DNA of 64,000 nucleotides from Mycetocola sp. (GTDB lineage: Bacteria > Actinomycetota > Actinomycetes > Actinomycetales > Microbacteriaceae). Of this stretch, positions 5,789-48,673 are shown piece after piece. Each line of letters starts with the position of its first letter. Position 1 is the first letter of the stretch. The notes under the pieces are model-generated. The model was not told the DNA's origin, did not search any database, and saw nothing but the letters and a program-made list of their open reading frames with translations. The stretch covers positions 5,901 through 69,900 of the forward strand of contig NZ_JBKJWH010000085.1 in the NCBI RefSeq assembly GCF_046716805.1, given 5' to 3'. Made by a program: the position numbers and the translations under genes.

Positions 5789-8455
5789 GTGGTGTCGGAC
5801 AACGAAAAGCCTACCCTCCTCGTCATTGACGGTCATTCCCTAGCATTCCGGGCGTTCTACGCGCTCCCGGTCGACAGTTTCTCGACGAAGGACGGGCAGC
5901 ACACCAACGCCATCCATGGCTTTCTCGCGATGCTCATCAACCTCCTTCGCGACCACAAACCGACGCACATCGCGGTGGCTTTCGACATCTCACGCTCCAG
6001 TTTCCGCACCCGCGAGTACCCGGAGTACAAGGGCACTCGGGGCGAGACCCCTTCAGAGTTCATCGGCCAGGTTCCGCTCCTGCAGGACGCCCTTGCGGCG
6101 ATGAACATCACCACCATCTCGATCGAGGACTACGAGGCCGACGACATCCTCGCCACGCTCTCCGTCCAGGGTAAGGAGCAGGGCTTCCGCGTTCTCGTCG
6201 TCTCCGGCGACCGCGACACAATCCAGCTCGTCAACGACGACGTCACCCTGCTTTACCCGTCGCGCATGGGCGTCTCCGACCTCACCCTCTACGACGCCGC
6301 CAAGGTGATGGAACGGTACGGCATCCAGCCGCACCAGTACCCAGAGGTCGCCGCGCTCGTCGGCGAGACGAGCGACAACCTCCCCGGCGTCCCCAAGGTC
6401 GGCGAGAAGACCGCGGTGAAGTGGCTGAACCTGTACGGCTCGCTCGACGGCATCCTCGAGAACGCCGACAAGATCGGCGGCAAAGTCGGCGAGAGCCTCC
6501 GCGAGCACAAAGACAACGCCATCCGCAACCGCAAGCTCAACCACCTGCTCACCGACGTGACTCTGCCGGTGACCCTCGACACGCTCGTCAAGAAGCCCAT
6601 CGATCAGCAGGCGGTGCGCGACATCTTCGGCCGGCTCGAGCTGCGGACCATGCTGGACCGCCTGTTCAAGGCGGAGGGCGTCGATGAGGAGAGCGAAGCA
6701 TCCGTTTCGCCGTCCGCCGGCGGACTCGCCAGCCCGGTGCCGCAGCAGCTTCTCGACGAGGAGCTCGGCGCCTGGCTCACCCGCGCTGTCGCCGCCCACC
6801 CGAACGGTCTCGGCTTCACCGTCGACGTGCACGAAGGAAAGCCCGCAGGCATGGGCATCTCCACGCCAACGGAGTGCGTGGCCGTCGGCTGGCTTCCCGG
6901 CCGCGCCGACTACGCGCCGTTCGAGGACTGGCTGGCCAGCCCTGCACCGAAGCTGATGAACGACGCCAAGCGGCAGCTCAAGGCGCTCAAGAACGCCGGA
7001 CTTCCGTTCGACGGGCTCGCCTATGACACTCACGTCGCCGGCTGGCTGCTCCGCCCCGGCGGCCAGGACAAGACCCTCTCCGACCTCGTCAGCCGCTATC
7101 TCGACGAAACCCTCCCGGTCTCCGACCCGAACCAGCTCGTCCCGGTGAACGAACCGGCATCCGCACCCGTCGAGGCCTGGTACACGCTCCGGCTCGTCGA
7201 TGCACTCAACGAGGCGCTCGACTCCGGCTCCCGAAACGTGCTCACCTCCATCGAGGTGCCCACCCTGCTCACGATCGTCGACATCGAACTGCGCGGCGTC
7301 ACCGTCAACCACACCCAACTCACCGAATTGAGTGCCGAACTGGCCGCGAAGGCCGCCGACCTGGCATCCCGGGCATACGCGATCATCGGGCACGAAGTAA
7401 ACCTCGGCTCGCCGAAACAGCTGCAGGACGTGCTGTTCAACGAATTGGACATGCCGAAGACCCGCGCGAACAAGACCGGCTTCTCGACGGATGCCGGTGC
7501 GCTGGCCGACCTGCAAGCGTCGAACCCGCATCCTTTCCTCGGGCTCCTCCTCGAACACCGTGACGCGTCGAAGCTGCGCCAGATCGTCGAGACCGTCGAC
7601 AAAGCCATCGGGAGCGACGGCCGGGTCCACACCAGCTACGTGCAGACCGGCACCACCACGGGCCGGATCTCGTCGACCGACCCGAACCTCCAGAACATCC
7701 CCGTTCGCACCGAAGAGGGACGCCGCATCCGGGCATCGTTCGAGGCAGGTGCCGGCTACGAGACGCTGCTCACCGCAGACTACTCACAGATCGAAATGCG
7801 CATCATGGCGCACCTCTCGGGCGACGAAGGGTTGATCGAGGCATTCCGTTCAGGTGAAGACCTGCACCGGTTCGTCGGTTCCCGGATCTTCGGTGTCGAC
7901 CCGGCGGATGTGACGAACGAGATGCGAACGAAGGTCAAGGCGATGTCGTACGGCCTGGCCTACGGGCTCAGTGCGTTCGGGCTGTCGAAACAATTGCGGA
8001 TCGACTCCTCCGAGGCGAAGGCGCTCATGAGCGACTACTTCGCCCGTTTCGGCGCCGTGCGCGACTACCTCCGCAATGTCGTCGAACAGGCCGTCGAAGA
8101 CGGCTACACGACAACCCTCTTCGGCCGCCGCCGGCCGTTCCCAGACTTGAAGAGCCCCAACCGGGTGCTGCGCGACAACGCGCAACGAGCAGCCCTCAAC
8201 GCTCCCATCCAGGGCTCCGCCGCCGACATCATGAAGATCGCCATGATCAACATCGAAGCCGACACTGCGGCTCAGAATCTGGGGTCACGCATGCTCATGC
8301 AGGTGCATGATGAACTGATCTTCGAAGTGGTCGAGGGGGAGTGGGACGCCCTCGAGGCGATTGTCCGCACCCGGATGGCGGGCGCCGCGGACCTGACCGT
8401 GCCGCTCGACGTCCACGTCGGTCGGGGTCACAACTGGGACGCCGCCGCGCACTGA
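5789..8455 (+). CDS. polA: DNA polymerase I
   Basis: 888 aa. The N-terminal 5'-3' exonuclease shows LLVIDGHSLAFRAFYA. The polymerase motifs are RISSTDPNLQNIP, ADYSQIEMRIMAH and QVHDELIFE. The start may instead be the GTG at 5792. Confidence 0.97.
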   Translation: MVSDNEKPTLLVIDGHSLAFRAFYALPVDSFSTKDGQHTNAIHGFLAMLINLLRDHKPTHIAVAFDISRSSFRTREYPEYKGTRGETPSEFIGQVPLLQDALAAMNITTISIEDYEADDILATLSVQGKEQGFRVLVVSGDRDTIQLVNDDVTLLYPSRMGVSDLTLYDAAKVMERYGIQPHQYPEVAALVGETSDNLPGVPKVGEKTAVKWLNLYGSLDGILENADKIGGKVGESLREHKDNAIRNRKLNHLLTDVTLPVTLDTLVKKPIDQQAVRDIFGRLELRTMLDRLFKAEGVDEESEASVSPSAGGLASPVPQQLLDEELGAWLTRAVAAHPNGLGFTVDVHEGKPAGMGISTPTECVAVGWLPGRADYAPFEDWLASPAPKLMNDAKRQLKALKNAGLPFDGLAYDTHVAGWLLRPGGQDKTLSDLVSRYLDETLPVSDPNQLVPVNEPASAPVEAWYTLRLVDALNEALDSGSRNVLTSIEVPTLLTIVDIELRGVTVNHTQLTELSAELAAKAADLASRAYAIIGHEVNLGSPKQLQDVLFNELDMPKTRANKTGFSTDAGALADLQASNPHPFLGLLLEHRDASKLRQIVETVDKAIGSDGRVHTSYVQTGTTTGRISSTDPNLQNIPVRTEEGRRIRASFEAGAGYETLLTADYSQIEMRIMAHLSGDEGLIEAFRSGEDLHRFVGSRIFGVDPADVTNEMRTKVKAMSYGLAYGLSAFGLSKQLRIDSSEAKALMSDYFARFGAVRDYLRNVVEQAVEDGYTTTLFGRRRPFPDLKSPNRVLRDNAQRAALNAPIQGSAADIMKIAMINIEADTAAQNLGSRMLMQVHDELIFEVVEGEWDALEAIVRTRMAGAADLTVPLDVHVGRGHNWDAAAH

Positions 8456-8484
8456 ACTCCGTGACGGGCGGGCGCCACTGTCCT

Positions 8485-10173
8485 ATGCTCGACTCCATGA
8501 CTGAACCCACGCGCGCCCCGTCTGCCGTCGATGCCATCGCCGAGGACTGGGTCGACACGCTCGTCGACCTCGACCCGCTGGTCGGAACGTACATCGGACG
8601 CGCTGAGGCGAACAGCAGGTTCGGCGACTTCTCCCCAGCCGGGCATGACCGGTACGTCGCCGAGGCGAAGCGGACACTGGCCGCGCTCGAGGCGGCACAG
8701 CCCGCCGACGGCATCGATGAGGTCACCAAAACGGATCTTGCCAGCGAGCTGCGCCTCGACCTGGAGAGCGCGGAGGCCCAGCTTCACCTGCGCGACCTCA
8801 ACGTCATCGCATCGCCGGCTCAGGGCATCCGGGAGATCTTCGACATCATGCCGACAGCGACCGTCGACGACTGGGACGACATCTCCACACGGCTGAAGGC
8901 CCTCCCTGGAGCCGTCGCCGGCTACATCGAGACCCTCCGCCTCGGCATCGAACGCGGAGTCACCCCCGCCAAGCGGCAGGTGCGCGAGGTCTTCGAACAG
9001 GCCAAGAAGTACGGCGCAGACGAAGGATTCTTCCTCGGACTGGCCGCCACGGCATCTCCGGCTGAAGGCCAGCTTCCAGCCTCCCTTGCCTCCGACCTCT
9101 CAGCGAACGCCGGGCAGGCCGCCGTCGCCTACCGCTCCCTCGCCGATTTCCTCGCCCATGAGCTTGAGCCGGTCGCCCAGGAACAGGATGCCGTCGGCCG
9201 CGAACTCTACGCCCTTCAGTCACGCAGGTTCCTCGGCGCCACCATCGACCTCGACGAAACGTACGAATGGGGCATCGGCGAGCTCGCCAGCATGGTGGAC
9301 GAGCAGGAATCCATCGCCCGTGAAATCAAAGCCGGCGCGAGCGTCGAGGAAGCCATCGCGTTCCTCGACGGCGAGCCCAGCCGCAAACTGCACGGCACGG
9401 ACGCACTTCAGAAGTGGATGCAGGAAACCAGCGACCGCGCGGTCGCCGAACTCGGGAAGAGCCATTTCGACATCCCCGAAGAGATCCGGACGATCGAATG
9501 CATGATCGCTCCCACCCAGGAGGGCGGCATCTATTACACCGGCCCCACAGATGACTTCTCACGCCCGGGCCGGATGTGGTGGTCGGTGCCCGAGGGTGTC
9601 ACCGAGTTCGATACCTGGCGTGAACTCACGACCGTCTACCACGAGGGCGTCCCCGGTCACCACCTGCAGATCGGCCAGGCGGTGTACAACCGGGCGAAGC
9701 TCAACACCTGGCGGAGGCAGCTGGCCGGAACGTCAGGCCATGCGGAAGGCTGGGCGCTTTACGCCGAGAGGCTGATGGAGCAGCTCGGTTACCTCGACGA
9801 CCCCGCAGACCGGCTCGGGATGCTCGACGGTCAGCGGATGCGTGCGGCGCGCGTGGTGCTCGACATCGGTGTGCACCTCGGCAAACCGCACCCGGACGGC
9901 AGCGGGACGTGGACCGCAGACGACGCGTTCGCGTTCCTCGGCAAGAACGTGAACATGAACGAGGGCTTCGTGCGCTTCGAGGTCAACCGCTATCTCGGCT
10001 GGCCGGGCCAGGCCCCGTCGTACAAGGTCGGACAGCGGATCTGGGAACAGCTCCGCGACGAATACGCACGCCGCGAAGGTGACGCGTTCGACATCAGGGA
10101 GTTCCATAGGAAGGCGCTGGACCTCGGCGGCGTCGGTCTCGACACCCTGAAGCGCTCCCTCCTTGCCGGCTGA
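8485..10173 (+). CDS. DUF885 domain-containing protein
   Basis: ORF 8341-10173 trimmed to the first ATG after the polA stop (MLDSMTEPT...). The HEGVPGHHLQ metallopeptidase-like motif and overall length are typical of DUF885. Confidence 0.85.
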   Translation: MLDSMTEPTRAPSAVDAIAEDWVDTLVDLDPLVGTYIGRAEANSRFGDFSPAGHDRYVAEAKRTLAALEAAQPADGIDEVTKTDLASELRLDLESAEAQLHLRDLNVIASPAQGIREIFDIMPTATVDDWDDISTRLKALPGAVAGYIETLRLGIERGVTPAKRQVREVFEQAKKYGADEGFFLGLAATASPAEGQLPASLASDLSANAGQAAVAYRSLADFLAHELEPVAQEQDAVGRELYALQSRRFLGATIDLDETYEWGIGELASMVDEQESIAREIKAGASVEEAIAFLDGEPSRKLHGTDALQKWMQETSDRAVAELGKSHFDIPEEIRTIECMIAPTQEGGIYYTGPTDDFSRPGRMWWSVPEGVTEFDTWRELTTVYHEGVPGHHLQIGQAVYNRAKLNTWRRQLAGTSGHAEGWALYAERLMEQLGYLDDPADRLGMLDGQRMRAARVVLDIGVHLGKPHPDGSGTWTADDAFAFLGKNVNMNEGFVRFEVNRYLGWPGQAPSYKVGQRIWEQLRDEYARREGDAFDIREFHRKALDLGGVGLDTLKRSLLAG

Positions 10174-10228
10174 TCCCGGGGGGCGATCGTGTGGTCATCG
10201 CCGGGGTTCGGTTTTCTCGACGCTGCCG

Positions 10229-11944
10229 TCAGCGCTGCACAGCGGTTGCGGCGTCCGGCGAGCCCACGTTCCACTCCTGGTATCCCGAGCACCACGCGGA
10301 CTCGGACGACACGATGACGACGCCTGGGTACCCGTCGAGCATGGCTTCGAGCTGGCCCTGGGCCGCGGAATCAAGCCGACCGTCGATGTCGTCAAGCAGC
10401 AGCAATGCCGGGGATCCGAGCATCGCACGGGCCACCATGAGCCCCGCGACCTGTGCCGCGTCCAGCGGAATCCCGCCGCGGCGCAGCTGCGTTTTCGCAC
10501 CGTGATCCAGCGAATCGATGCACAGCCCCAGCCGCCCCGCGACTGCAAGGGCCAGGTCCCGGTTCGCGTCTGGGTGCCGGTACCGCAGCGCGCGCAGCAC
10601 GGTGCCGCGTTCGGGCACCATTGCGGAGTATGCCGCGCCGATGAGCCGGCGTCGTTTCTTCTCTCCCACGGCGCCCGGGATCACCCCGGCCACGACATAG
10701 TCCCATGCCCGGCCTGCAGCGTCCTGTCCCAGGTCACCGACGATGGGGCCCGCGTCCGTGCGCGCGGTGGCCAGTATGTTGAACAGCTCGCCGCGCCGCC
10801 GCGCATCGCCGCCGACCATGCGAATGCGGGCGCCCGGTTCGGCGTCCAACTCAGGGATGGGGTGCGAGTCGATCTCGACTCCGCACAGCCACACCCCGCC
10901 GACGGGTCGGGCCGGGCTCAGGGTCTCCGGTCGCGAAACCATCCTGATCGTTATGTCCTCTCCGGACCTCAGCGTGGTTTCCTCGTCGAGCAACGGGGCA
11001 AGAATGCGTCGGGCGGCCCGGTAGTTCTGCCGGTATTCCACGATGCGCCCCCACTCACCCACTGGCGCCGCGCACAGTCCCAGTAGGGTCAAGGCCGTGG
11101 CGATCTGTCCGGCGTCCAAAGCCACGCTCCTGGCGATGACCACCGCAATGGCGGCGGCCACCAGCGGCATGCCCAGGGAGCAGGCGCGCAACACACCGGC
11201 CAGGCGCGCCCGGTGTACTGCCGCGTCCATAACCTTATGGCCGCTGACTTCCACCCGTGCCAGCTCTCGTGCCACGCCGCCGGACGCGACCACCGCGGAC
11301 GAAGCGGCGACGGTGTCGGCGATACGCGCGGCAAGGTTGCCGCGGTGCCGCCGCAGAACCCGGGCACGTTGAAAGGCGGGTCTGGCGAGCAGGAGCAGCG
11401 CGGCGCCCAGCACCAGCACCGGAAGCCCAAGCGCCGGCGCCAGAAGGGGATTCAGCACCCAGAGGCCGACCATCGAGATGAGAACCAGAGGGATACCGGC
11501 CAGCATCGGGGCGATTCCCTGAGCCACCCAGTTGCGCACCGAGGACAGGTCGTTGCTCGCCCTGGCCACGGTGATGCCCACAGAGGGGGCCTTCCGTGCC
11601 AGCAGCGAGTGAGAGATCAGCGAAACGCGCAACTGTGCCACGTAATGCTGTCCGAGCTTCTCGGCGAACACCCGCTCCAGGTATCGACCGTAGCCGAGCA
11701 CCAGAATCAGCGCGCCGATGCCGGCGACGACGGGGAGCTTCGCGCCGCCGTTCACGAGGCTTCCGACCAGGAGGGCGATCGTCACACCAAGCGCACCGCA
11801 CAGTGTGGCAATGGCCAGCAGCGCGGCAAACAGCGCACGGCGCCTCCCGGTGATGAGCTTCGGCAGCCGCGCTGCGCGACCCCGAATACCGGTGTCCTTC
11901 GCGGAATCCACCGGTTCTGCCGCACCTTCCCGCGTGCCGCCCAT
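10229..11944 (-). CDS. ABC-exporter-like membrane protein (six TM helices) with fully degenerate nucleotide-binding domain
   Basis: ORF 10229-12016, with the start placed at the ATG at 11944, downstream of the preceding gene's stop. About six hydrophobic helices are followed by an NBD-like region in which each motif is altered:
- Walker A is VGGDARRRGE
- the signature is GGIPLDAAQ
- Walker B is LLLLDDID
- the H-loop position is VVIVSSES. Confidence 0.75.
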   Translation of the reverse strand: MGGTREGAAEPVDSAKDTGIRGRAARLPKLITGRRRALFAALLAIATLCGALGVTIALLVGSLVNGGAKLPVVAGIGALILVLGYGRYLERVFAEKLGQHYVAQLRVSLISHSLLARKAPSVGITVARASNDLSSVRNWVAQGIAPMLAGIPLVLISMVGLWVLNPLLAPALGLPVLVLGAALLLLARPAFQRARVLRRHRGNLAARIADTVAASSAVVASGGVARELARVEVSGHKVMDAAVHRARLAGVLRACSLGMPLVAAAIAVVIARSVALDAGQIATALTLLGLCAAPVGEWGRIVEYRQNYRAARRILAPLLDEETTLRSGEDITIRMVSRPETLSPARPVGGVWLCGVEIDSHPIPELDAEPGARIRMVGGDARRRGELFNILATARTDAGPIVGDLGQDAAGRAWDYVVAGVIPGAVGEKKRRRLIGAAYSAMVPERGTVLRALRYRHPDANRDLALAVAGRLGLCIDSLDHGAKTQLRRGGIPLDAAQVAGLMVARAMLGSPALLLLDDIDGRLDSAAQGQLEAMLDGYPGVVIVSSESAWCSGYQEWNVGSPDAATAVQR

Positions 11945-11961
11945 CCGTGCACCTGCAGCGC

Positions 11962-13116
11962 TCACAGCAAGGCGGCGCGCACCGGGATCAGGGCGGCGGC
12001 GACTTCGGGACGGCACAGGTCGTAGGTGACGATGACGGGGACGTCGATCCAGGCCGAGGCCTCCGCGGCGGCCAGGGGCGAAGCGGTGAGCAGGCCGGAG
12101 ACGGCTGCCACCGGCACCGCGGCGTCATGCAGCAGGTCCAGTCCGGCGCGGGCGCCCAGAGCATCCTGAGCTGCGAACACGACGGTGTCCACATAGGTGG
12201 CGAAGAGCGGGTCGCGCAGCAGTCTGGAGGTTTCGCCCTGGTAAAGCCCGTCGGCGATCTCGATGACCACCACATCGGCGCCAAAGGCAGCCTGCTCGTC
12301 GATCATCGCGGCGAGCAGGTTGCGAACCTCTTCGTAGGCGAGCTTGAAGGTGGTGGGGTATCCGAAGTCGGTGAAGTCGCAGACCGGAAACGCACCGGCG
12401 TCGATGAACAGGTTGGGGTCGTTGCCCGCGCCAGTTCCGGTCGCCTTGCCCGCTGCCACAGTGAGACCGGCGTTGGACAGCCCGTTGACCAGGCAGGCGA
12501 GCGTGGTGGACTTGCCCGAGTTCATCGATGTGCCCAGAACGGCGATGACCGGCGGGCGCCGGGAGCCCAGCGCGGCGACCGCGGCCAGTGACGGGCTGCC
12601 GACCTGCAGGGGAGAGAAGTCGCGCAGGTTCACTACGCCCTCCCTGGTTGCCAGGAGGCCGATCGGTTCGATCGCGGTGGCGGCTCCGATCGAAGCGTGT
12701 GTCTCGATCACGTATCCGGCGAGCCCGCCGCCTGCGACGAGGTGGCAGGGCTCGAGGGAATCCGGCACGTGTGCCAGAAACTGGTCAGGGGCGTAGCGGT
12801 TGCCGTATGCGACCATGATCTCCTGGCCGACGAACAAGAGCTGGCGGCGGGAGGTCGGAGATTCCAGCCGCGTGTGCTTGCCCAGTTCTGTGACGCGCGC
12901 AATGACGACATCTCCGGCTTCGGGGTGAACCTCGGACCCGGCCAGCATGTGGAAGTCCTCAGGTCGCTTGGTGAATTCGGTGGCGACAAAACGCGTGGTG
13001 TAGGCGGCCCGGACCTTCACCGCCCGCTCCGCCCCAATCTGTACGCGGGTGTATCGGCCGTCAGTAACCTCACGTGCATCGAGGTCATCGGTGTCGAGGC
13101 TGGGGCTGATGCTCAT
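11962..13116 (-). CDS. P-loop NTPase of unknown function (BioD/CobQ/DUF1611-like GT-x4-GKS motif) with N-terminal beta-rich domain
   Basis: ORF 11962-13209 trimmed to the ATG at 13116, which is preceded by GAAGGA. Walker A is VLGTSMNSGKSTT and the Walker-B-like segment is ADVVVIEIADGL. The stop lies 17 nt upstream of the next gene's start. Confidence 0.7.
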   Translation of the reverse strand: MSISPSLDTDDLDAREVTDGRYTRVQIGAERAVKVRAAYTTRFVATEFTKRPEDFHMLAGSEVHPEAGDVVIARVTELGKHTRLESPTSRRQLLFVGQEIMVAYGNRYAPDQFLAHVPDSLEPCHLVAGGGLAGYVIETHASIGAATAIEPIGLLATREGVVNLRDFSPLQVGSPSLAAVAALGSRRPPVIAVLGTSMNSGKSTTLACLVNGLSNAGLTVAAGKATGTGAGNDPNLFIDAGAFPVCDFTDFGYPTTFKLAYEEVRNLLAAMIDEQAAFGADVVVIEIADGLYQGETSRLLRDPLFATYVDTVVFAAQDALGARAGLDLLHDAAVPVAAVSGLLTASPLAAAEASAWIDVPVIVTYDLCRPEVAAALIPVRAALL

Positions 13117-13256
13117 ATCGGTAATCCTTCTCAGTGCCAGGAACTCCATGCCGCCCCGCTTCGGCCGCAAGCACAATGCCTTGCATTGCTCCCCAGCCTG
13201 CATCGCCAAAGTAAGCGGCAGGTGAACAAACCACGGATGTACTGTTTCGGGATTAC

Positions 13257-13391
13257 GACTGGGAGCAGCTCCGGGACGAGTACTCGCGCCGCCAGGGCGA
13301 CGCCTTCGACATCAAGGAGTTCCACAAGAAGTCGCTGGACCTCGGCGGCGTCGGTGTCGACACCCTGAAGCGCACCCTGCTGGCCGGCTGA
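13257..13391 (+). pseudogene. orphan 3'-terminal fragment (44 codons plus stop) of a second DUF885 gene copy
   Basis: It translates to DWEQLRDEYSRRQGDAFDIKEFHKKSLDLGGVGVDTLKRTLLAG*. The intact gene end at 10039-10173 reads IWEQLRDEYARREGDAFDIREFHRKALDLGGVGLDTLKRSLLAG*. I saw no homology upstream of 13257. Confidence 0.75.
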
Positions 13392-13479
13392 ACGGCCTCC
13401 CGCCCGGTCGCCTCGTCGACGTCCCCACCGCTGGCATGGTGCCAACGGGGTGCTTCATCAACCTGAGACGGTCCAGGAG

Positions 13480-13961
13480 TCAGAAACGCCGGGAGGTGGT
13501 GGAGATGGGACCTGTCTTATCGGCAAACTTGTGGAGCTTGCCATCCTCGGCCGCGCGGAGGCGCGGATGGAACTCGACAATTTCAGGGCACTCGTCGAGC
13601 AGGAAGCGCCGAAATGATGTCCAGGTCAGTACTCCTACGTCGGTGTGGCCACCACGTTCCAGACGCCGAACACCGAGAGCGCGAGGTAGAAGACGAAAGG
13701 CGGAATGTCGTGGGCGATCACGAACAGGGCGGTGAAGGCCGCGGTCGCACTGAGCAGCAAGACTCCGATCCACGTCTCATGCTAAAGGCTGGCCATACCG
13801 AGTAGTGCCAGGCCCGGAAGTGTGAGCCAGACGTACCCCAACCACGGCCCCGCCGGAAGTTCGCCTCGGGCGAATTCCTCGATCCGCCGACCACGACGCG
13901 CACAGGCGACAGCCCATAGCGCCGCTCCCACGAACAACGCGGTTCCGGCGGCAGCTGCCAT
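13480..13961 (-). pseudogene. disrupted small membrane protein gene (in-frame TAG, probable frameshift)
   Basis: From the ATG at 13961 the frame reads MAAAAGTALFVGAALWAVACARRGRRIEEFARGELPAGPWLGYVWLTLPGLALLGMASL, then TAG (13782-13784). It continues in frame as HETWIGVLLLSATAAFTALFVIAHDIPPFVFYLALSVFGVWNVVATPT to a stop at 13635-13637. A further start-less reading frame (..TSFRRFLLDECPEIVEFHPRLRAAEDGKLHKFADKTGPI..) runs on to 13480 in another frame. Confidence 0.4.
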
Positions 13962-14298
13962 TCATCGGTCATGTACCACTCAACTCAGTGACCTGATCTT
14001 TGATGGCGACGCTACGCTGCGGCGTGCCATGACTCAACACCCAGCGTGCACGGTCAGCGCCATCCGCTCCTTCACCGGTGCTCCATTCCGGGGGGTTCGA
14101 CGATGCCGGCGGGTGTCGACGGTGCAGACTGTGCCGACGGGCGCACGTCACGATCGCCGCACCCGTCATCGGTAGGCTCTACAGGTACGGCGGAGCATTC
14201 ACCTACTCCGTCGGCAGCGAGGCGGATGTCGTGAGCTAACACGTTGCCATCGCAGGCATCCGACCGCCCCCGTCCGCCCCTGAACCGGAGACCGCTGA

Positions 14299-15219
14299 AT
14301 GACTCAGATCGCCCTCGTCAGCCATGGCCTGACCGATCCCGCTCTTCGTGATGACGACCTTCCGCTCCTCGTCGACGGTCTCACGCAGGCGGGCCTGCCG
14401 GCGCAGGTGGCGCTCTGGACCGACCCGTCGGTGCGCTGGGAGGACTTCGGCCTCGTGGTTCTCCGTTCGCCGTGGGACTACCCCGACGCCGCTCCGGAGT
14501 TCCTTGCCTGGCTCGACCGCGTGGCATCCGTTGTTCGCGTGCTGAACGCGCCGGCACTGGTCCGCTGGAACATCGACAAGACGTACCTCCGCGAAATCGC
14601 CGCCGCCTCCACCGTTCCGCTGGTGCCGACGACGTTCTGCACCACGCTCGGCGAAGTGGTGACAGCGCTGGCAGTCCTTCGGCCGGGTCGCGTTGTGATC
14701 AAGCCGTCGGTGTCCGCGGGTTCGCAGAACACCGGGTTGTTCGAAGCCGGCGATCCCTCCGTGCTCCTCCTCGCACGGCAGATCCTCGCCCTCGGCAAGG
14801 TTGTGATGGTTCAGCCGGCGATCGACGGGGTGCAGGAGCGCGGGGAGCGTGCCCTCCTCTACTTCAACGGCCGGTTCAGCCACGCGATCTCCAAGGGCCC
14901 GCTGCTGGCCGTGGGCGGGGGACTGCTCGGCGGAACGTACGTCGAGACGATCCACTCGATCAACGCCGAGCCGGCCGAACGTGCCGTCGGTGACGCCCTC
15001 ATCGCTGCGGCCGTCACGGTCCTCCTCGGGCGCGGGTTGTCCGAATCCGATGCCGTTCCTCTTTATGCCCGGATCGATATCGTCGACGACCCCGTCCTCG
15101 GGCCGCTCGTGCTCGAAGCCGAGCTCTTCGAACCGTCGTTGTTTCTCGGCTCCGCGCCGGATGCCGTCGGCAATTTCGTCGCGGCCGTGCGGGAGCGACT
15201 CGCTCCCGAGCCGGTTTGA
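14299..15219 (+). CDS. ATP-grasp domain-containing protein (RimK/glutathione-synthase-like ligase)
   Basis: 306 aa. It has a pre-ATP-grasp N-terminal part and the segments VVIKPSVSAGSQNT and ARIDIVDD...LEAELFEPSLF, characteristic of ATP-grasp folds. The antisense 350-aa ORF is Arg/Gly-rich. Confidence 0.8.
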   Translation: MTQIALVSHGLTDPALRDDDLPLLVDGLTQAGLPAQVALWTDPSVRWEDFGLVVLRSPWDYPDAAPEFLAWLDRVASVVRVLNAPALVRWNIDKTYLREIAAASTVPLVPTTFCTTLGEVVTALAVLRPGRVVIKPSVSAGSQNTGLFEAGDPSVLLLARQILALGKVVMVQPAIDGVQERGERALLYFNGRFSHAISKGPLLAVGGGLLGGTYVETIHSINAEPAERAVGDALIAAAVTVLLGRGLSESDAVPLYARIDIVDDPVLGPLVLEAELFEPSLFLGSAPDAVGNFVAAVRERLAPEPV

Positions 15220-15248
15220 GGCGTCCGTTTGTCGGCCAAGATACTCAT

Positions 15249-15278
15249 TTGCGGCTCGCCCGAGATTCCCGATAGACT
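15249..15278 (+). promoter_or_regulatory. putative rpsA promoter
   Basis: TTGCGG, an 18-nt spacer and TAGACT lie about 115 nt upstream of the rpsA start. This is a motif match only. Confidence 0.35.
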
Positions 15279-15394
15279 GACATGTCACTTTTGTGACGTT
15301 CTATCCGTTCGCCGTGCACGGAAAACACCCTGACAATTCACGATTGGCAGGATCGTGTCGGCCCGAAATCAGTCCTCACTGGAGCAACCACTAC

Positions 15395-16840
15395 ATGACA
15401 ACCGCAACGACCGCCAAGCAGGTCGCTATCAACGACATCGGATCGGCTGAAGACTTCCTGGCCGCGGTCGAGAAAACACTGAAGTTCTTCAACGACGGAG
15501 ACCTCATCGAAGGTACCGTCGTCAAGATCGATCGCGACGAGGTCCTCCTCGATGTCGGCTACAAGACCGAGGGTGTTATTCCCTCGCGCGAACTTTCGAT
15601 CAAGCACGACGTGGACCCCAGCGAGGTCGTCCAGGTCGGCGACATGGTCGAAGCCCTCGTCCTCCAGAAGGAAGACAAAGAAGGTCGTCTCATCCTGTCC
15701 AAGAAGCGCGCACAGTACGAGCGCGCGTGGGGCGACGTTGAGAAGATCAAGGAAACCGATGGCGTCGTGACCGGTTCGGTCATCGAGGTCGTCAAGGGCG
15801 GCCTCATCGTCGACATCGGCCTCCGTGGCTTCCTGCCCGCATCGCTCATCGAGCTGCGCCGGGTTCGCGACCTCACGCCGTACCTCGGCCAGGAGATCGA
15901 AGCCAAGATCCTCGAACTTGACAAGAACCGCAACAACGTTGTGCTTTCGCGTCGCGCGCTGCTCGAGCAGACCCAGTCTGAGAGCCGCACCACGTTCCTG
16001 AACAACCTCCAGAAGGGGCAGGTCCGCAAGGGCGTCGTCTCGTCGATCGTCAACTTCGGTGCGTTCGTCGACCTCGGTGGCGTCGATGGTCTCGTCCACG
16101 TCTCAGAGCTCAGCTGGAAGCACATTGAGCACGCTTCTGAGGTCGTCGAGGTTGGCCAGGAGGTCACCGTCGAGATCCTCGAAGTGGACCTCGACCGTGA
16201 GCGTGTCTCCCTGTCGCTCAAGGCGACGCAGGAAGACCCGTGGCAGGTTTTCGCCCGCACCCACGCCATCGGCCAGGTTGCACCGGGCAAGGTCACCAAG
16301 CTCGTTCCGTTCGGTGCGTTCGTTCGCGTCGCAGACGGCATCGAGGGGCTCGTTCACATCTCCGAGCTCAGCGGCAAGCACGTCGAACTCGCCGAGCAGG
16401 TTGTCTCGGTCAGTGACGAGGTCTTCGTCAAGGTCATCGACATCGACCTCGAACGCCGCCGCATCTCGCTGAGCCTCAAGCAGGCCAACGAAGGCGTCGA
16501 CCCCGAGGGCACCGAGTTCGACCCGGCACTCTACGGAATGCTCACCGAGTACGACGACCAGGGCAACTACAAGTACCCTGAAGGCTTCGACCCGGAGACC
16601 AACGAGTGGAAAGAGGGCTTCGACACCCAGCGCGAGAAGTGGGAGCAGGACTACGCTGCAGCCCAGGCTCGCTGGGAAGCTCACAAGAAGCAGGTTGCGA
16701 CCGCCGCGACGGAAGAGGCCGCAGCAGCGTCCGCCCCTGCCGCGGGTTCGACCTTCTCGAGCGAGACCGCAGGCAGCGGCACCCTCGCAGACGACGAGTC
16801 GCTTGCGGCTCTTCGCGAGAAGCTGACCAGCAACTCTTAA
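15395..16840 (+). CDS. rpsA: 30S ribosomal protein S1
   Basis: Four S1 repeats are present (e.g. GTVVKIDRDEVLLDVGYKTEGVIP and GVVSSIVNFGAFVDLGGVDGLVHVSE). The start was moved to the ATG at 15395, which follows GGAG. Confidence 0.95.
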   Translation: MTTATTAKQVAINDIGSAEDFLAAVEKTLKFFNDGDLIEGTVVKIDRDEVLLDVGYKTEGVIPSRELSIKHDVDPSEVVQVGDMVEALVLQKEDKEGRLILSKKRAQYERAWGDVEKIKETDGVVTGSVIEVVKGGLIVDIGLRGFLPASLIELRRVRDLTPYLGQEIEAKILELDKNRNNVVLSRRALLEQTQSESRTTFLNNLQKGQVRKGVVSSIVNFGAFVDLGGVDGLVHVSELSWKHIEHASEVVEVGQEVTVEILEVDLDRERVSLSLKATQEDPWQVFARTHAIGQVAPGKVTKLVPFGAFVRVADGIEGLVHISELSGKHVELAEQVVSVSDEVFVKVIDIDLERRRISLSLKQANEGVDPEGTEFDPALYGMLTEYDDQGNYKYPEGFDPETNEWKEGFDTQREKWEQDYAAAQARWEAHKKQVATAATEEAAAASAPAAGSTFSSETAGSGTLADDESLAALREKLTSNS

Positions 16841-21144: not shown

Positions 21145-21150
21145 TAGACT
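21145..21150 (+). promoter_or_regulatory. -10-like hexamer TAGACT 6 nt upstream of uvrA GTG
   Basis: The sequence reads TAGACT-cgtgag-GTG (21157). This is the same geometry as at uvrB. Confidence 0.4.
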
Positions 21151-21156
21151 CGTGAG

Positions 21157-24048
21157 GTGTCAATCTCGAAGGTCAACTCCACGTCAAAACTCAGCGTTCG
21201 CGGCGCCCGTGTGCACAACCTGCACAATGTCGACCTCGACATCCCCCGAGACTCCCTCGTGGTCTTCACCGGTTTGTCCGGCTCAGGAAAGTCGTCGCTC
21301 GCCTTCGACACGATCTTCGCTGAAGGCCAGCGCCGCTATGTCGAATCATTGTCGGCGTATGCCCGCCAGTTCCTCGGCCAGGTCGACCGACCAGACGTCG
21401 ACTTCATCGAGGGCCTCAGCCCAGCGGTGTCGATCGACCAGAAATCGACCAACCGCAACCCGCGCTCCACCGTCGGCACGATCACCGAGGTCTACGACTA
21501 CATGCGGCTTCTCTGGGCGCGTATCGGCGTGCCCCACTGCCCGGAATGCGGTGAGCCGATCGAACGACAGACCGTGCAGCAGATCGCCGACCAGCTGATG
21601 GAGCTCGAGGCAGGCACCCGCTACATGGTGATGAGCCCCATCGTGTCGCAGAAGAAGGGCGAGTTCGTCGACCTGTTCAAGGAGCTGGCAGCCAAGGGTT
21701 ACGCCCGAGCCCTCGTCGACGGCGAGCAGGTCCAGCTCAACGAGCCACCCACGCTCAAGAAGTCGTACAAGCACGACATCTCGGTTGTCGTCGACCGGCT
21801 CGTCGCCGGCCCGGACGCCCTCACCCGGCTCACCGACTCGCTCGAAACCGCTCTGGGACTCACCGACGGCGTGGTCCAGATCAAACTCGTCGACGAGGAC
21901 GGCCCTGACGCGGTGCGCTCGTACAGCGAGAAGCTCTCCTGCCCGAACAACCACCCGGTCCAGCTCACCGAAATCGAGCCGCGCACCTTCAGCTTCAACG
22001 CGCCGTTCGGCGCCTGCCCGGAGTGTTCGGGGCTCGGGACCCGCATGTCGGTCGACCAGGACCTGCTCATCGGCGATGAGGACCTCAGCATCGACGACGG
22101 CGTGATCATTCCGTGGACCACACAGGGCAAGGGGCTTTACCAGTACTACGAGAAGCTCCTCGAGGGCCTCGCCCGAGACCTCGACTTCTCCCTTCGGACC
22201 CCGTGGAAGAAACTTCCGGCGAAAGTACAGGAAGCCGTTCTGCGCGGTGAGAATTTCAAGGTGAAGGTCAAGTGGAAGAACCGGTACGGCCGTGAGGTCA
22301 GTTACACCTCCGGCTTCGAGGGCGTCATGCCCTACATCGAACGTCAGTACGCCCAGGCCGAAACCGACGTCCAGCGCGCCCGCTGGGGGGAGTACCTCCG
22401 CGAGATCCCCTGCCCTGTCTGCGACGGCAAGCGGCTCAAACCCGAGGTGCTCAGCGTGCTCATCCACGGCGCCAACATCGCGGATGTCGCCTCACTGAGC
22501 CTCACCGACGCACGCGAGTTCATGGATCAGATGGACCTGACCGACCGCGAAGGAATGATCGCCGCGCAGGTGCTCCGCGAGATCAAGGTCCGACTCGACT
22601 TTTTGATCCAGGTCGGGTTGAACTACCTCAACCTCTCGCGCACCGCCGGCTCGCTCTCCGGCGGCGAGGCGCAGCGCATCCGGCTGGCGACCCAGATCGG
22701 GTCGGGGCTGACCGGTGTTCTCTACGTCCTCGACGAACCGAGCATCGGGCTTCACCAGCGCGACAACCGCCGCCTCATCCAGACCCTCGTCACCCTGCGC
22801 GACCTGGGGAACACGCTCATCGTCGTCGAGCACGACGAGGACACCATCCGGACAGCCGACTGGATCGTCGACATCGGCCCAGGCGCTGGAGTCAACGGTG
22901 GCACCGTGGTGCATTCGGGTTCCTATGACGACCTGCTCGCGAACACGCGGTCACTCACAGGCGATTACCTCTCCGGGCGCAAGGAAATCGAAGTGCCCGA
23001 AACCCGCCGGCCGGTGGATCCGGAGCGGATCGTCACCGTCGTCGGCGCTGAGGCGAACAATCTCCGTAAGGTGACCGTCGAATTCCCCCTCGGAATCTTC
23101 ACCGCGGTGACCGGGGTCAGCGGATCGGGCAAGTCCTCGCTCGTGAACGACGTCCTGTACCGCGTGCTCGCCAACAAGCTCAACGGCGCGAGGAAGCTGC
23201 CCGGGAAGCACACCCGCGTGACCGGTGTGGAGCAACTGGACAAGGTGATCCACGTCGACCAGGCACCGATCGGGCGTACCCCGCGCTCAAACCCGGCCAC
23301 CTACACGGGTGTCTTCGATCGCATCCGCAACCTGTTCTCCGAGACGATCGAGGCGAAGACCCGCGGCTACCTTCCCGGGCGGTTCAGTTTCAACGTCAAG
23401 GGCGGGCGCTGCGAGGCCTGCTCGGGCGACGGCACGATCAAGATCGAGATGAACTTCCTCCCCGATGTCTACGTCGCGTGCGAAGTCTGCGGGGGAGCGC
23501 GGTACAACCGCGACACGCTCTCGGTGCACTACAAGGGCAAGAACATTGCGGAAGTCCTCGACATGCCGATCGCGGAAGCCGCTGACTTCTTCGAGCCCAT
23601 CACGGCGATCCACCGGTACCTCAAGACCCTCGTCGAGGTCGGACTCGGGTACGTCCGGCTCGGCCAGAGTGCCACGACGCTGTCCGGCGGCGAGGCACAG
23701 CGGGTGAAGCTTGCCACAGAACTTCAGCGGCGGACGAACGGCCGGAGCATCTACGTGCTCGACGAACCGACCACCGGGTTGCACTTCGAAGACGTACGCA
23801 AACTCCTGCTCGTGCTCAACAGCCTCGTCGACAAGGGCAACACCGTCATCGTGATTGAGCACAACCTCGACGTGATCAAGTCGGCTGACTGGCTGATCGA
23901 CCTGGGCCCGGAGGGAGGAGCCGGCGGCGGCAAGGTCCTGGCCACAGGAACCCCCGAGAAGCTGGCCACCGTCAAGAAGAGCCACACCGGGTACTACCTC
24001 AAGGAAGTACTGGAGGCGGGCCAGATCGTTGCCCGTAAGGCGGGGTAA
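21157..24048 (+). CDS. uvrA: excinuclease ABC subunit A
   Basis: 963 aa with two ABC modules ([12 protein letters not shown] and [10 protein letters not shown]; [12 protein letters not shown] and [12 protein letters not shown]) and zinc-finger cysteines. Confidence 0.97.
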
Positions 24049-45938: not shown

Positions 45939-46262
45939 GTGGCTGAACTTGTCTGCGCCCTCCGCGACCTCAAGGTCAACGAGGCTAAACGCGTCGTCGT
46001 CGGCGGCAAGTCGATCGCCCTTGTGCTCGACGGCAACGGGGATGTCCACGCAATCGGTGACACCTGCACCCACGGTGACATCTCGCTCTCGGAGGGGTTC
46101 GTCGAGAACGACACCCTTGAGTGCTGGGCGCACGGCTCCCAATTCTCCCTGCTCACGGGCAAGCCACTGTCGCTTCCCGCCTACGAACCCGTCCCGGTCT
46201 ACCTCGTGGAGCTGACCGACGGCAACATTTTCATCGACCCGACCGTAACGAAAGAGATCTGA
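45939..46262 (+). CDS. Rieske (2Fe-2S) ferredoxin-like protein
   Basis: The Rieske ligand motifs are CTHGDISL and CWAHGSQF. 107 aa, embedded between sufD and sufC. Confidence 0.85.
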   Translation: MAELVCALRDLKVNEAKRVVVGGKSIALVLDGNGDVHAIGDTCTHGDISLSEGFVENDTLECWAHGSQFSLLTGKPLSLPAYEPVPVYLVELTDGNIFIDPTVTKEI

Positions 46263-46266
46263 GCTC

Positions 46267-48609: not shown

Positions 48610-48673
48610 ACTGTTGGGTCGACCCCTTTGTTTTGCGCCGTTTTTTGGCGCGCCGTCAAGAATTGGACCTGCT

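What the first reader, a model, noticed from the sequence alone, without database searches (positions are those of the whole stretch)
10229..11944. ABC-exporter-like protein whose nucleotide-binding domain has lost every catalytic motif
The protein has the six-helix TMD plus C-terminal NBD layout of type I ABC exporters, but all ATP-handling motifs are altered:
- Walker A reads VGGDARRRGE, with no GK[ST]
- the Q-loop glutamine is absent
- the signature reads GGIPLDAAQ instead of LSGGQ
- Walker B is LLLLDD, with Asp in place of the catalytic Glu
- the H-loop histidine is replaced (VVIVSSES)
Heterodimeric ABC exporters with one degenerate site are well known. A stand-alone half-transporter with a completely dead NBD and no partner half-transporter nearby is unusual. 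It may act as a scaffold or sensor, or it may be powered by another NTPase. The reading frame is intact, so it does not look like a recent pseudogene.
Basis: partly seen in the sequence, partly recalled or inferred. Interest (0 to 1): 0.65.

Follow-up and report, generated by a model that had tools for sequence, protein, structure and literature searches.

The report
ATP-blind ABC exporter paired with P-loop protein
This intact gene encodes an ABC-exporter-shaped membrane protein that has lost every ATP-binding motif. It always sits directly behind a gene for an unrelated P-loop nucleotide-binding protein, forming a widespread, uncharacterised two-gene unit in which the transporter's own ATPase has been lost several times independently.

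Summary
The minus-strand ORF 10229-11944 (571 aa) has a six-helix ABC_membrane domain and a C-terminal domain with the NBD fold. Its Walker A, A-loop, Q-loop, signature, catalytic Glu and H-loop are all gone.

It is not a pseudogene. About 90 orthologues across Actinomycetota keep the same dead domain, with dN/dS of 0.10-0.44.

It is not stand-alone either. In 77 of 77 informative genome loci it lies directly downstream of a 384-aa BioD/DUF1611-like P-loop protein with an intact Walker A (window 11962-13116). No second ABC half-transporter lies nearby in any locus.

Proteobacterial and metagenomic relatives have the same gene pair, but many of them keep a canonical Walker A/B/H-loop. A rough tree shows at least four independent Walker A losses. 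So the P-loop partner came first and the ABC ATPase was lost repeatedly afterwards.

In those relatives the partner is often next to, and sometimes fused to, a serine alpha/beta-hydrolase.

In this window the pair is a 3.1-kb cassette bracketed by a 133-nt duplication of the DUF885 gene's 3' end.

My best reading is a partner-dependent, non-ATP-hydrolysing export or scaffold module. Substrate and energy coupling remain inferred. I found no literature on it.

The parts
10229..11944 (-). Gene for the 571-aa ABC-exporter-fold protein with an ATP-site-less NBD-like domain
   Evidence: Translation; Pfam ABC_membrane only; AF2 pLDDT 85.7 and Foldseek full-length matches to type IV ABC exporters; 94 orthologues.
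10967..11863 (-). Transmembrane domain with six long helices (residues 28-326). Includes the family motifs LPxLxxGxRR, AEKLGQxY, GITVARxTNDLSSVRNW, RRxRGxLA and EYRQN.
   Evidence: AF2 helices H33-64, H69-115, H122-164, H168-213, H224-273 and H278-326; conserved columns.
10265..10897 (-). NBD-like domain (residues 350-560). The fold is kept and the ATP motifs are lost.
   Evidence: Foldseek alignments span it; phmmer against PDB covers residues 446-538; dN/dS 0.10-0.44.
10787..10816 (-). Walker A remnant VGGDARRRGE (no GK[ST])
   Evidence: hhalign to P0097 SGDNGSGKST; motif table; coordinates checked.
10571..10642 (-). Q-loop position (IGAAYSAMV, no Gln), followed by the family-specific conserved motif ERGTVLRALRYRHP
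   Evidence: E445, R446, G447, R451, Y455, R456 and P458 are at least 90% conserved.
10451..10477 (-). Signature-motif remnant GGIPLDAAQ (LDAAQ in place of LSGGQ). The X-loop-like T..L..GG just upstream is conserved.
10388..10405 (-). Walker B remnant LLLLDD (Asp kept, catalytic Glu replaced by Asp), followed by a D-loop-like GRLD
10298..10321 (-). H-loop region VVIVSSES (no His)
11962..13116 (-). Partner gene for a 384-aa protein. It has an N-terminal all-beta domain (about residues 17-160) and a C-terminal BioD/DUF1611/SRP-GTPase-like (SIMIBI) P-loop domain. Its stop codon lies 17 nt before the ABC-like ATG.
   Evidence: AF2 pLDDT 90.5; Foldseek hits to SRP54/FtsY, dethiobiotin synthetase and TM0796/2g0t; 54-66% identity across genera; sub-threshold Pfam DUF1611 hit; NCBI name 'DUF1611 domain-containing protein'.
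12505..12534 (-). Intact Walker A of the partner, GTSMNSGKST. Other invariant motifs are AGKATGTGAG (12430-12465 region), DFTDFG and EIADG (12247-12261).
   Evidence: Invariant columns in A4/A5; coordinates checked.
10041..10173 (+). Left copy of the 133-nt direct repeat. It is the true 3' end of the DUF885 gene, stop codon included.
   Evidence: the repeat finder D1; alignment and translation.
13259..13391 (+). Right copy of the direct repeat (87% identical). It is an orphan DUF885 C-terminal 43 codons plus a stop. Together the two copies bracket the two-gene cassette.

Best explanation
The ORF encodes an intact, selectively maintained type IV (ABCB-like) ABC-exporter-fold half-transporter.

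Its C-terminal domain keeps two things. One is the NBD fold. The other is the set of elements that in ABC exporters contact the TMD coupling helices: an X-loop-like T..L..GG and the stretch after the Q-loop. It has lost every residue that contacts ATP, so it cannot bind or hydrolyse ATP in the ABC manner.

It is the distal gene of a two-gene cassette. The proximal gene encodes a BioD/DUF1611-like P-loop protein with an intact nucleotide site.

I infer that the two work as one unit. The P-loop protein does the only nucleotide-dependent step, most likely ATP-dependent activation or ligation of a small substrate. In other phyla it does this together with a serine alpha/beta-hydrolase to which it is sometimes fused. 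The reaction would take place at the cytoplasmic face of a homodimer of the ABC-like protein. That homodimer would provide the membrane path, or the membrane anchoring, for the product without hydrolysing ATP itself. This amounts to partner-coupled or facilitated export.

Shown: motif loss, fold, purifying selection, strict synteny, repeated independent ATP-site loss within the family, fusions of the partner to the hydrolase, and transfer of the pair as a cassette.

Inferred: a physical complex, homodimerisation, the direction of transport, the substrate, and how energy is coupled.
For: - Motif loss and register.
- Exporter fold including the NBD.
- Purifying selection: among 77 actinobacterial sequences the NBD-like domain is 39.5% identical on average and the TMD 45%. 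dN/dS for the NBD-like domain is 0.10-0.44 in 15 close pairs.
- Strict pairing in Actinomycetota: the ABC-like gene lies immediately downstream on the same strand in 76 of 77 informative genome loci by an automatic rule, and the 77th has it. The loci span Micrococcales, Propionibacteriales, Corynebacterium, Prauserella, Arcanobacterium and others.
- Gene spacing: called genes overlap by 1-14 nt or are 7-17 nt apart. One locus, L007, has a called gap of 387 nt.
- Flanks: all other flanking genes differ, and no second ABC_membrane gene occurs in any locus.
- Pairing outside Actinomycetota: 46 of 54 informative metagenome loci have the same adjacency.
- Gradient of ATP-site states in those loci: 24 fully canonical, 11 with Walker A only, about 10 with no Walker A. 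An NJ tree on the TMD shows at least 4 separate Walker A losses.
- Partner nucleotide site: Walker A is intact in all 15 representatives I read from an unbiased search of 1.84 billion proteins, which found 1669 relatives.
- Partner fold: BioD, DUF1611 and SRP-GTPase-like.
- Fusions: the partner is fused to the alpha/beta-hydrolase in both orders (P0342; P0267 and P0308). The hydrolase has an intact GxSxG...D...H triad.
- Cassette: the pair is bracketed by a 133-nt duplication, and similarity to other Paeniglutamicibacter loci stops at the cassette's edges.
Against: - There is no direct evidence that the two proteins touch. No partner-ABC fusion appeared among the long representatives that I scanned or read from the 150 best, and I could not run a complex prediction.
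- The partner also accompanies fully canonical ABC relatives, so it is not simply a substitute motor.
- The alpha/beta-hydrolase is absent from all 85 actinobacterial loci and from the window. The actinobacterial system may therefore work differently from the proteobacterial one.
- A canonical ABC half-transporter encoded elsewhere in the genome cannot be excluded from a 64-kb window.
- The substrate is entirely unknown.
- The NJ tree behind the count of independent losses is a rough distance tree on about 300 columns.
Confidence: 0.45

Rival explanations
1. Hybrid motor. The P-loop partner docks on the dead NBD-like domains, and its NTP-dependent dimerisation and hydrolysis cycle drives the inward/outward switching of the ABC TMDs. 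It would functionally replace the ABC ATPase, as ArsA energises ArsB.
For: The ATP site was lost repeatedly and independently only in this partner-associated family. The NBD fold and the TMD-coupling elements are retained under selection. The gene junctions are tight or overlapping. The partner belongs to the SIMIBI class, many of whose members dimerise on NTP binding (plus general knowledge).
Against: The partner's P-loop (GT[SA]MN[SA]GK[ST]) and its Lys/Glu motifs resemble BioD/CobQ-type enzymes, not the deviant Walker A ATPases of the ArsA/MinD type. It co-occurs with fully competent ABC ATPases. Its fusions are to a hydrolase, not to the transporter. There is no precedent for a non-ABC motor on an ABC TMD.
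Confidence: 0.2
2. Silent half of a heterodimer. The protein pairs with a canonical ABC half-transporter encoded elsewhere in the genome, which supplies the single active ATP site.
For: Heterodimeric exporters with one degenerate site are common (review PMC7756269). The D-loop-like LD and the Walker B Asp are often retained.
Against: In known heterodimers the two genes are adjacent and the degenerate subunit keeps Walker A and binds ATP. Here Walker A is absent in all of about 80 orthologues and no second ABC_membrane gene occurs in about 85 loci. With neither Walker A nor a signature motif in this subunit, both composite sites of such a heterodimer would be defective. The pair moves as a two-gene cassette without any such partner.
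Confidence: 0.1
3. Non-transport role. The ABC-like protein is a membrane scaffold, receptor or regulator, as SUR and CFTR are ABC proteins that are not pumps. It would tether or gate the P-loop enzyme at the membrane and translocate nothing.
For: The energy source is lost completely. Several relatives have truncated NBD-like domains (L094, L113, L117, L119 and L125). Some partner homologues carry their own N-terminal TM segments (P0266, P0276) or a receiver domain (P0235). ECF sigma genes lie next to the cluster in proteobacteria.
Against: The TMD is the best conserved part of the ABC-like protein, with charged motifs lining the intracellular helices, as expected for a working translocation pathway. 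Canonical relatives look like ordinary pumps.
Confidence: 0.15
4. Decaying gene or assembly artefact. The NBD is degenerate because the gene is dying, or because the contig is chimeric.
For: A few orthologues are split or truncated (L041, L054, L064, L070). The window comes from a soil metagenome.
Against: The frame is intact. Conservation spans several orders and dN/dS is well below 1. Contig depth is even across the cassette in run X1 (9.2-10.7). The longest identical run I can see in the alignment of the two repeat copies is about 23 nt, which makes a repeat-mediated misjoin unlikely.
Confidence: 0.03

Closest known systems
Heterodimeric type IV ABC exporters with one degenerate ATP site (TM287/288, TmrAB, BmrCD, EfrCD, PatAB, TAP1/2)
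   Same: Same overall fold: a six-helix TMD plus a C-terminal NBD (Foldseek E about 1e-18). The catalytic Glu, the H-loop His and the signature motif are substituted.
   Different: Those proteins keep Walker A and bind ATP at the degenerate site (PMC7756269). They are encoded next to a canonical partner half. Here Walker A, the A-loop and the Q-loop are gone as well, and there is no adjacent ABC partner.
SbmA/BacA-type transporters (from memory: ABC-exporter-like TMD without an NBD, driven by the proton gradient) and Rv1819c
   Same: A precedent for an ABC-exporter-type TMD that works without ABC ATP hydrolysis.
   Different: SbmA has no NBD at all. This protein keeps a folded, conserved NBD-like domain. 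Pfam returned only ABC_membrane at E up to 0.01, so no other family, SbmA/BacA-type included, was hit. SbmA/BacA also has no conserved P-loop partner gene (from memory).
Canonical-site relatives of the same family (P0095 Roseitalea, P0097, Sulfitobacter plasmid WP_138925336)
   Same: Same N-terminal LPxLxxGxRR and GQxY motifs. Same non-canonical Q-loop region (..GSL) and LSxGE-type signature. Same P-loop partner gene directly upstream (hhalign E 2.9e-40).
   Different: They retain GxxGxGK[ST], hhhhDE and the H-loop His. Their clusters also carry an alpha/beta-hydrolase, and often an Asp/Asn beta-hydroxylase-like gene and an ECF sigma factor.
Dethiobiotin synthetase (BioD) / DUF1611 (TM0796, PDB 2g0t) / SRP-type GTPases, for the partner protein
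   Same: SIMIBI P-loop fold (Foldseek E 1e-5 to 2e-4). GT[SD]xxxGK[ST] P-loop, a conserved Lys after strand 2, and an E.(A/G)(D/G)G Walker B-like motif (the motif comparison with BioD is from memory).
   Different: The Pfam DUF1611 hit is below threshold (18.7 against 25). The N-terminal domain is an all-beta domain with no Pfam or PDB sequence match. Per Pfam's naming, DUF1611 proteins carry a separate N-terminal domain.
ArsA-ArsB (from memory: a SIMIBI ATPase energising a membrane carrier)
   Same: A conceptual precedent for a soluble SIMIBI NTPase gene next to, and working with, a transporter that lacks its own ATPase.
   Different: ArsA has the deviant Walker A and a duplicated architecture. 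ArsB is not an ABC-fold protein. No homology was tested or claimed.

Membership tests
Type IV (ABCB-like) ABC exporter half-transporter | Six-helix ABC_membrane TMD | tested here: met
   Pfam PF00664 at 30.6 bits against a cutoff of 28. Six long helices in the AF2 model. Foldseek matches to PCAT1, MsbA and TmrAB.
Type IV (ABCB-like) ABC exporter half-transporter | C-terminal domain with the NBD (RecA-like plus helical) fold | tested here: met
   Foldseek alignments cover 540-590 columns, C-terminal domain included. phmmer against PDB aligns residues 446-538 to the signature/Walker B region.
Type IV (ABCB-like) ABC exporter half-transporter | Walker A GxxGxGK[ST] | tested here: not met
   VGGDARRRGE lies opposite SGDNGSGKST. 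The motif is absent in all of about 80 actinobacterial orthologues.
Type IV (ABCB-like) ABC exporter half-transporter | Walker B hhhhD followed by the catalytic Glu | tested here: not met
   The sequence is LLLLDD. The Asp is kept and the Glu is replaced. The position is variable across orthologues.
Type IV (ABCB-like) ABC exporter half-transporter | Signature LSGGQ, Q-loop Gln and H-loop His | tested here: not met
   LDAAQ, AAYSAMV and SSES respectively. There is no Pfam ABC_tran hit at E up to 0.01.
Type IV (ABCB-like) ABC exporter half-transporter | ATP binding and hydrolysis coupled to transport | not testable with these tools
   Needs biochemistry.
Heterodimeric ABC exporter with one degenerate site | A gene for a canonical partner half-transporter adjacent to it | tested here: not met
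   No second hit to the family HMM with a TMD in about 85 loci or in the 64-kb window.
Heterodimeric ABC exporter with one degenerate site | The degenerate subunit still has Walker A and binds ATP | tested here: not met
   No Walker A. The definition comes from PMC7756269.
DUF1611 / BioD-like (DTBS-like) P-loop proteins (the partner, 11962-13116) | P-loop GTxxxxGK[ST] in a SIMIBI fold | tested here: met
   GTSMNSGKST is invariant. Foldseek hits to BioD, 2g0t and SRP54/FtsY.
DUF1611 / BioD-like (DTBS-like) P-loop proteins (the partner, 11962-13116) | Match to the Pfam DUF1611 model above its gathering score | tested here: not met
   18.7 bits against a cutoff of 25, over 36 residues only. NCBI nevertheless names the orthologues 'DUF1611 domain-containing protein'.
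Known anti-phage defence systems (considered because it is a mobile two-gene cassette: NTPase plus membrane protein) | Match to a PADLOC model | tested here: not met
   Only a 13.6-bit generic hit for the ABC-like protein and none for the partner.

The most novel reading that the evidence does not exclude
The pair is a hybrid transporter. A BioD/DUF1611-like SIMIBI NTPase has taken over as the energy-transducing subunit of an ABC-exporter membrane domain, and the former NBD is reduced to a nucleotide-free adaptor. This would be a replacement of the ABC motor caught at several evolutionary stages, since canonical, half-dead and fully dead NBDs all coexist in one family.
Probability: 0.2. Interest if true: 0.85.

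Novelty: new variant of a known kind. Interest (0 to 1): 0.62.

Why it matters
ABC exporters are defined by ATP-driven NBD dimerisation, and even 'degenerate' sites in known exporters still bind ATP. This family has discarded the whole ATP site at least four times while keeping the NBD fold under selection. It has always done so next to the same unrelated P-loop protein.

If that reading holds, the family offers a natural experiment on what an NBD does apart from hydrolysing ATP. It also points to an uncharacterised system present in hundreds of species: at least 561 species genomes and 1669 protein clusters for the partner. Its components are a P-loop enzyme, an ABC-fold membrane protein and, outside Actinomycetota, a serine hydrolase.

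The pair is small and self-contained, and orthologues occur in cultured genera such as Glutamicibacter, Micrococcus and Corynebacterium. The questions are therefore open to direct experiment.

Tried and rejected
- **Misaligned motifs or a hidden Walker A.** Rejected by three independent alignments.
- **Pseudogene.** Rejected by conservation and dN/dS.
- **A third conserved gene in actinobacterial loci.** All-against-all clustering of flanking ORFs found only the two cassette genes in every locus. The next cluster, a two-component system, occurs in 26 related loci only. An HMM of the proteobacterial alpha/beta-hydrolase found nothing in the actinobacterial loci or the window.
- **Whether Actinomycetota carry that hydrolase elsewhere in the genome.** The last protein search listed only proteobacterial top hits, so this is unresolved.
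- **Riboswitch or ncRNA around the cassette.** No Rfam match at E up to 1 in 9800-15400.
- **Promoter and terminator scan.** Nothing above the shuffled expectation.
- **Known defence system.** No PADLOC match.
- **Identity of the partner's N-terminal beta domain.** No Pfam family. No PDB sequence match; the best was an S1/OB-like stretch at E 0.7. The Foldseek hits listed align only about 190-260 columns, which suggests they cover the P-loop domain alone.
- **DUF885 next to the cassette in other genomes, as a possible donor arrangement.** None found.
- **An empty-site allele in the source metagenome.** One low-depth contig in X2 skips 10014 to 13287, but it carries 39 unmatched letters and is probably a different DUF885 homologue. 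Inconclusive.
- **Literature.** 'DUF1611' gave two irrelevant papers. 'dethiobiotin synthetase-like' plus 'ABC transporter' gave none.
- **Complex prediction.** Not possible.
Full report
**What is at the coordinates.** The finding is a minus-strand ORF with ATG at 11944 and a stop at 10229-10231, encoding 571 aa. The window has about 65% G+C. The closest homologues are from Paeniglutamicibacter (72-74% identity). The sequence comes from a soil metagenome.

Pfam gives only ABC_membrane (30.6 bits, cutoff 28) and no ABC_tran. NCBIfam gives weak partial hits far below cutoff: CydC and MsbA for the TMD, and PrtD, HlyB and CydD for residues about 446-537.

**Are the motifs really lost?** Three alignments agree.
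- phmmer against PDB aligns residues 446-538 to the signature/Walker B/D-loop region of ABCB19, ABCB1 and BmrA. This puts LDAAQ opposite LSGGQ and LLLLDD opposite LLLLDE.
- hhalign of a 94-sequence family profile against P0097, a relative with a canonical site, has probability 100 and E 2.9e-40. It aligns the whole length and puts VGGDARRRGE opposite SGDNGSGKST and SSES opposite ASHR.
- An HMM alignment of about 80 orthologues plus four canonical relatives gives the same register.

The A-loop aromatic residue also has no conserved counterpart in the family consensus.

The AF2 model (pLDDT 85.7) has six long helices and a mixed alpha/beta C-terminal domain. It matches full-length type IV ABC exporters at E 1e-20 to 1e-17.

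**Is it decaying?** No.
- Orthologues in Micrococcales, Propionibacteriales, Corynebacterium, Prauserella, Arcanobacterium, Brevibacterium and Dermabacteraceae all lack Walker A.
- They share non-canonical conserved motifs in the NBD-like domain: ERG...R..RYR.P, T.L..GG.PL, ARA and YPG.
- Mean pairwise identity is 39.5% for the NBD-like domain and 45% for the TMD.
- In 15 close pairs, dN/dS is 0.10-0.44 for the NBD-like domain and 0.02-0.34 for the TMD.

From general knowledge of ABC exporter structures, the retained T..L..GG (X-loop position) and the stretch after the Q-loop are the parts of an NBD that grip the TMD coupling helices. The conserved residues thus look like coupling and fold residues rather than nucleotide residues. 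This is an inference, because I had no access to the model's coordinates.

**It is not stand-alone.** The ORF just upstream on the same strand is 11962-13116 (384 aa), and its stop lies 17 nt before the ABC-like ATG. It has an invariant P-loop, GTSMNSGKST.

- In Glutamicibacter, Georgenia, Promicromonospora, Nocardioides and Microlunatus the same two genes are adjacent while every other neighbour differs. In the first four the genes overlap by 4-14 nt or lie 7-8 nt apart. In Microlunatus the called gap is 387 nt.
- A scan of one genome per species with the partner protein found at least 561 genomes.
- In the best 80 loci the ABC-like gene is immediately downstream in 76 of 77 informative cases by an automatic rule. 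The 77th has it.
- No locus has a second ABC_membrane gene. Nor does the 64-kb window.

The partner is more conserved than the ABC-like protein: 57% mean identity.

**What the partner is.** The AF2 model has pLDDT 90.5.
- The C-terminal domain (about residues 190-384) is a SIMIBI-class P-loop domain. Foldseek hits include SRP54/FtsY G domains, dethiobiotin synthetase and TM0796 (PDB 2g0t, a DUF1611 protein).
- Pfam hits to DUF1611, AAA_26, CbiA and MobB are all below threshold.
- The motif set is GT[SA]MN[SA]GK[ST], a conserved Lys in AGKATGTG, and EIADG. From memory this resembles the BioD/CobQ type of ATP-dependent ligase rather than the deviant-Walker-A ATPases.
- The N-terminal all-beta domain has no detectable relative.

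**The wider family changes the interpretation.** The few non-actinobacterial hits of the first search (P0095-P0098) have canonical Walker A, Walker B-Glu and H-loop. They also share the family's N-terminal and TMD motifs, its Gln-less Q-loop and its LSxGE signature.

These relatives also have the partner gene. It is directly upstream in a metagenome locus (L088) and two genes upstream in Roseitalea (L091). Annotated plasmids show the same arrangement:
- Sulfitobacter: Asp/Asn beta-hydroxylase-like gene, alpha/beta-hydrolase-like gene, 'DUF1611', ABC protein with a canonical site.
- Paracoccus liaowanqingii: ECF sigma factor, alpha/beta-hydrolase, 'dethiobiotin synthase', ABC protein with no Walker A and a truncated NBD.

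A metagenome scan with the proteobacterial partner gave 80 more loci. In 46 of 54 informative ones the ABC gene is directly downstream. The ATP-site states of their ABC proteins are as follows:

| ATP-site state | Loci |
|---|---|
| Fully canonical (Walker A, Walker B-Glu, H-loop His) | 24 |
| Walker A and Walker B-Glu, no H-loop His | 3 |
| Walker A and H-loop His, no catalytic Glu | 1 |
| Walker A only | 11 |
| No Walker A | 10 |

Several further sequences with truncated NBDs are not counted in the table.

A distance tree on the TMD places the Walker-A-less forms in at least four separate clades. The actinobacterial clade is one of them, and fully canonical forms are basal (a rough tree).

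Two conclusions follow. The partner association predates the loss of the ABC ATPase. Within this partner-associated family the ATPase has been dispensable again and again.

**Further functional links.** An unbiased profile search of 1.84 billion representative proteins found 1669 partner relatives.
- Among the longer ones, the partner is fused to the alpha/beta-hydrolase in both orders (P0342; P0267 and P0308).
- It is also found fused to a receiver domain (P0235) or to N-terminal TM segments (P0266, P0276).
- No ABC fusion appeared among the long representatives I checked.
- The hydrolase has an intact Ser-Asp-His pattern. It is itself sometimes fused to an Asp/Asn-hydroxylase-like domain.
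- It is absent from the actinobacterial loci. Whether it lies elsewhere in those genomes is unresolved.

**Local anatomy.** A 133-nt direct repeat (10041-10173 and 13259-13391, 87% identical) brackets the pair exactly.
- The left copy is the real 3' end of the DUF885 gene.
- The right copy is an orphan encoding the last 43 codons plus a stop.
- Similarity to other Paeniglutamicibacter loci covers only about 10160-13233, and their flanks are different.
- G+C is 69% in the 10001-12000 bin, against about 65% for the window.

This is the footprint of a single-crossover or site-specific insertion of a roughly 3.1-kb two-gene cassette from a diverged donor. It supports the view that the pair is a self-sufficient unit. 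Contig depth in the source run is even across the cassette.

**Mechanism.** Several things are shown: a folded, selected, ATP-blind ABC-exporter-fold protein, and an obligate genomic partner with an intact nucleotide site. The ABC ATP site has been lost recurrently in that context. The partner is linked to a hydrolase, and the pair moves as a cassette.

My best inference (confidence 0.45) is this. The partner performs the only nucleotide-dependent step, probably ATP-dependent activation or ligation of a small molecule. The ABC-like homodimer provides the membrane path or anchoring for that product without hydrolysing ATP.

Rivals:
- The partner is a true replacement motor (0.2).
- The ABC-like protein is a non-transporting scaffold or regulator (0.15).
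- It is the silent half of a heterodimer whose partner is encoded elsewhere (0.1).
- It is decaying or an assembly artefact (0.03).

Known degenerate-site exporters keep Walker A, bind ATP and have adjacent partner genes (PMC7756269). None of these holds here.

**Novelty.** I found no paper on this pair. I rate it a new variant of a known kind: the fold and ancestry are plainly those of an ABC exporter, while the complete, recurrent and selected loss of the ATP site next to a fixed non-ABC P-loop partner is not described. Interest is 0.62.

Noticed in passing
window 10041-10173 and 13259-13391: A 133-nt direct repeat, 87% identical. It is the 3' end of the DUF885 gene plus an orphan copy of its last 43 codons and stop. 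The two copies bracket the two-gene cassette exactly, and there is no integrase between them. It looks like a single-crossover insertion of foreign DNA.
   Followed up: yes
window 13392-14298: About 0.9 kb lies between the orphan repeat copy and the next plausible gene. It contains only short, Arg/Ser-rich ORFs of doubtful coding value, no Rfam match and no tRNA. That is unusually long for an intergenic stretch in this genome.
   Followed up: partly
window 14299-15219 (+): A 306-aa ORF just upstream of rpsA has no Pfam hit at E up to 0.01. A longer antisense ORF (14236-15288, minus strand) is probably spurious. Its identity was not pursued.
   Followed up: no
window 8341-10173 (+) against 5789-8455 (+): The mechanical DUF885 ORF overlaps the end of polA by 115 nt. 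The Pfam match starts at residue 79, so the true start is probably downstream of 8455.
   Followed up: no
L088-L094, P0342, P0267, P0308, P0423-P0427: Outside Actinomycetota the pair belongs to a larger cluster. It includes a serine alpha/beta-hydrolase (fused to the partner in both orders in some lineages), an Asp/Asn beta-hydroxylase-like protein (fused to the hydrolase in some) and often an ECF sigma factor with a downstream hypothetical gene. The whole cluster appears uncharacterised.
   Followed up: partly
L041, L054, L064 (split ORFs); L070 (NBD-like domain cut short): A few orthologues of the ABC-like gene are split into two ORFs or truncated. Two of the four loci (L054, L064) are MAG contigs. 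These could be sequencing errors or genuine decay in some lineages.
   Followed up: no
L095 (Bacillus paranthracis plasmid NZ_CP116206.1), 6944-7972: A distant DUF1611-like relative of the partner (94 bits) sits in a different context, without an ABC gene. Its neighbours are a PEP mutase family protein, ATP-grasp proteins, TauD, a TPP-dependent enzyme and PyrB. That context hints at an enzymatic role for this protein family in small-molecule biosynthesis.
   Followed up: no
L001/L002 and 26 related loci, upstream of the pair: In Glutamicibacter, other Paeniglutamicibacter and some Arthrobacter, a histidine kinase/response regulator pair, a Trans_reg_C protein and a His_Phos_1 phosphatase lie just upstream of the cassette. 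This may simply be shared ancestry, or it may be regulation. The window's copy lacks them.
   Followed up: no
window 21148-24045, 46249-47028, 48566-50272, 55810-56592: These are the other ABC-type NBD proteins in the window: a UvrA-like double-NBD ORF, a soluble ABC ATPase, an ABC-F protein and another soluble ABC ATPase. All carry the Walker A pattern, and the first three also carry an LSGGQ-type signature. None is fused to an exporter TMD.
   Followed up: partly
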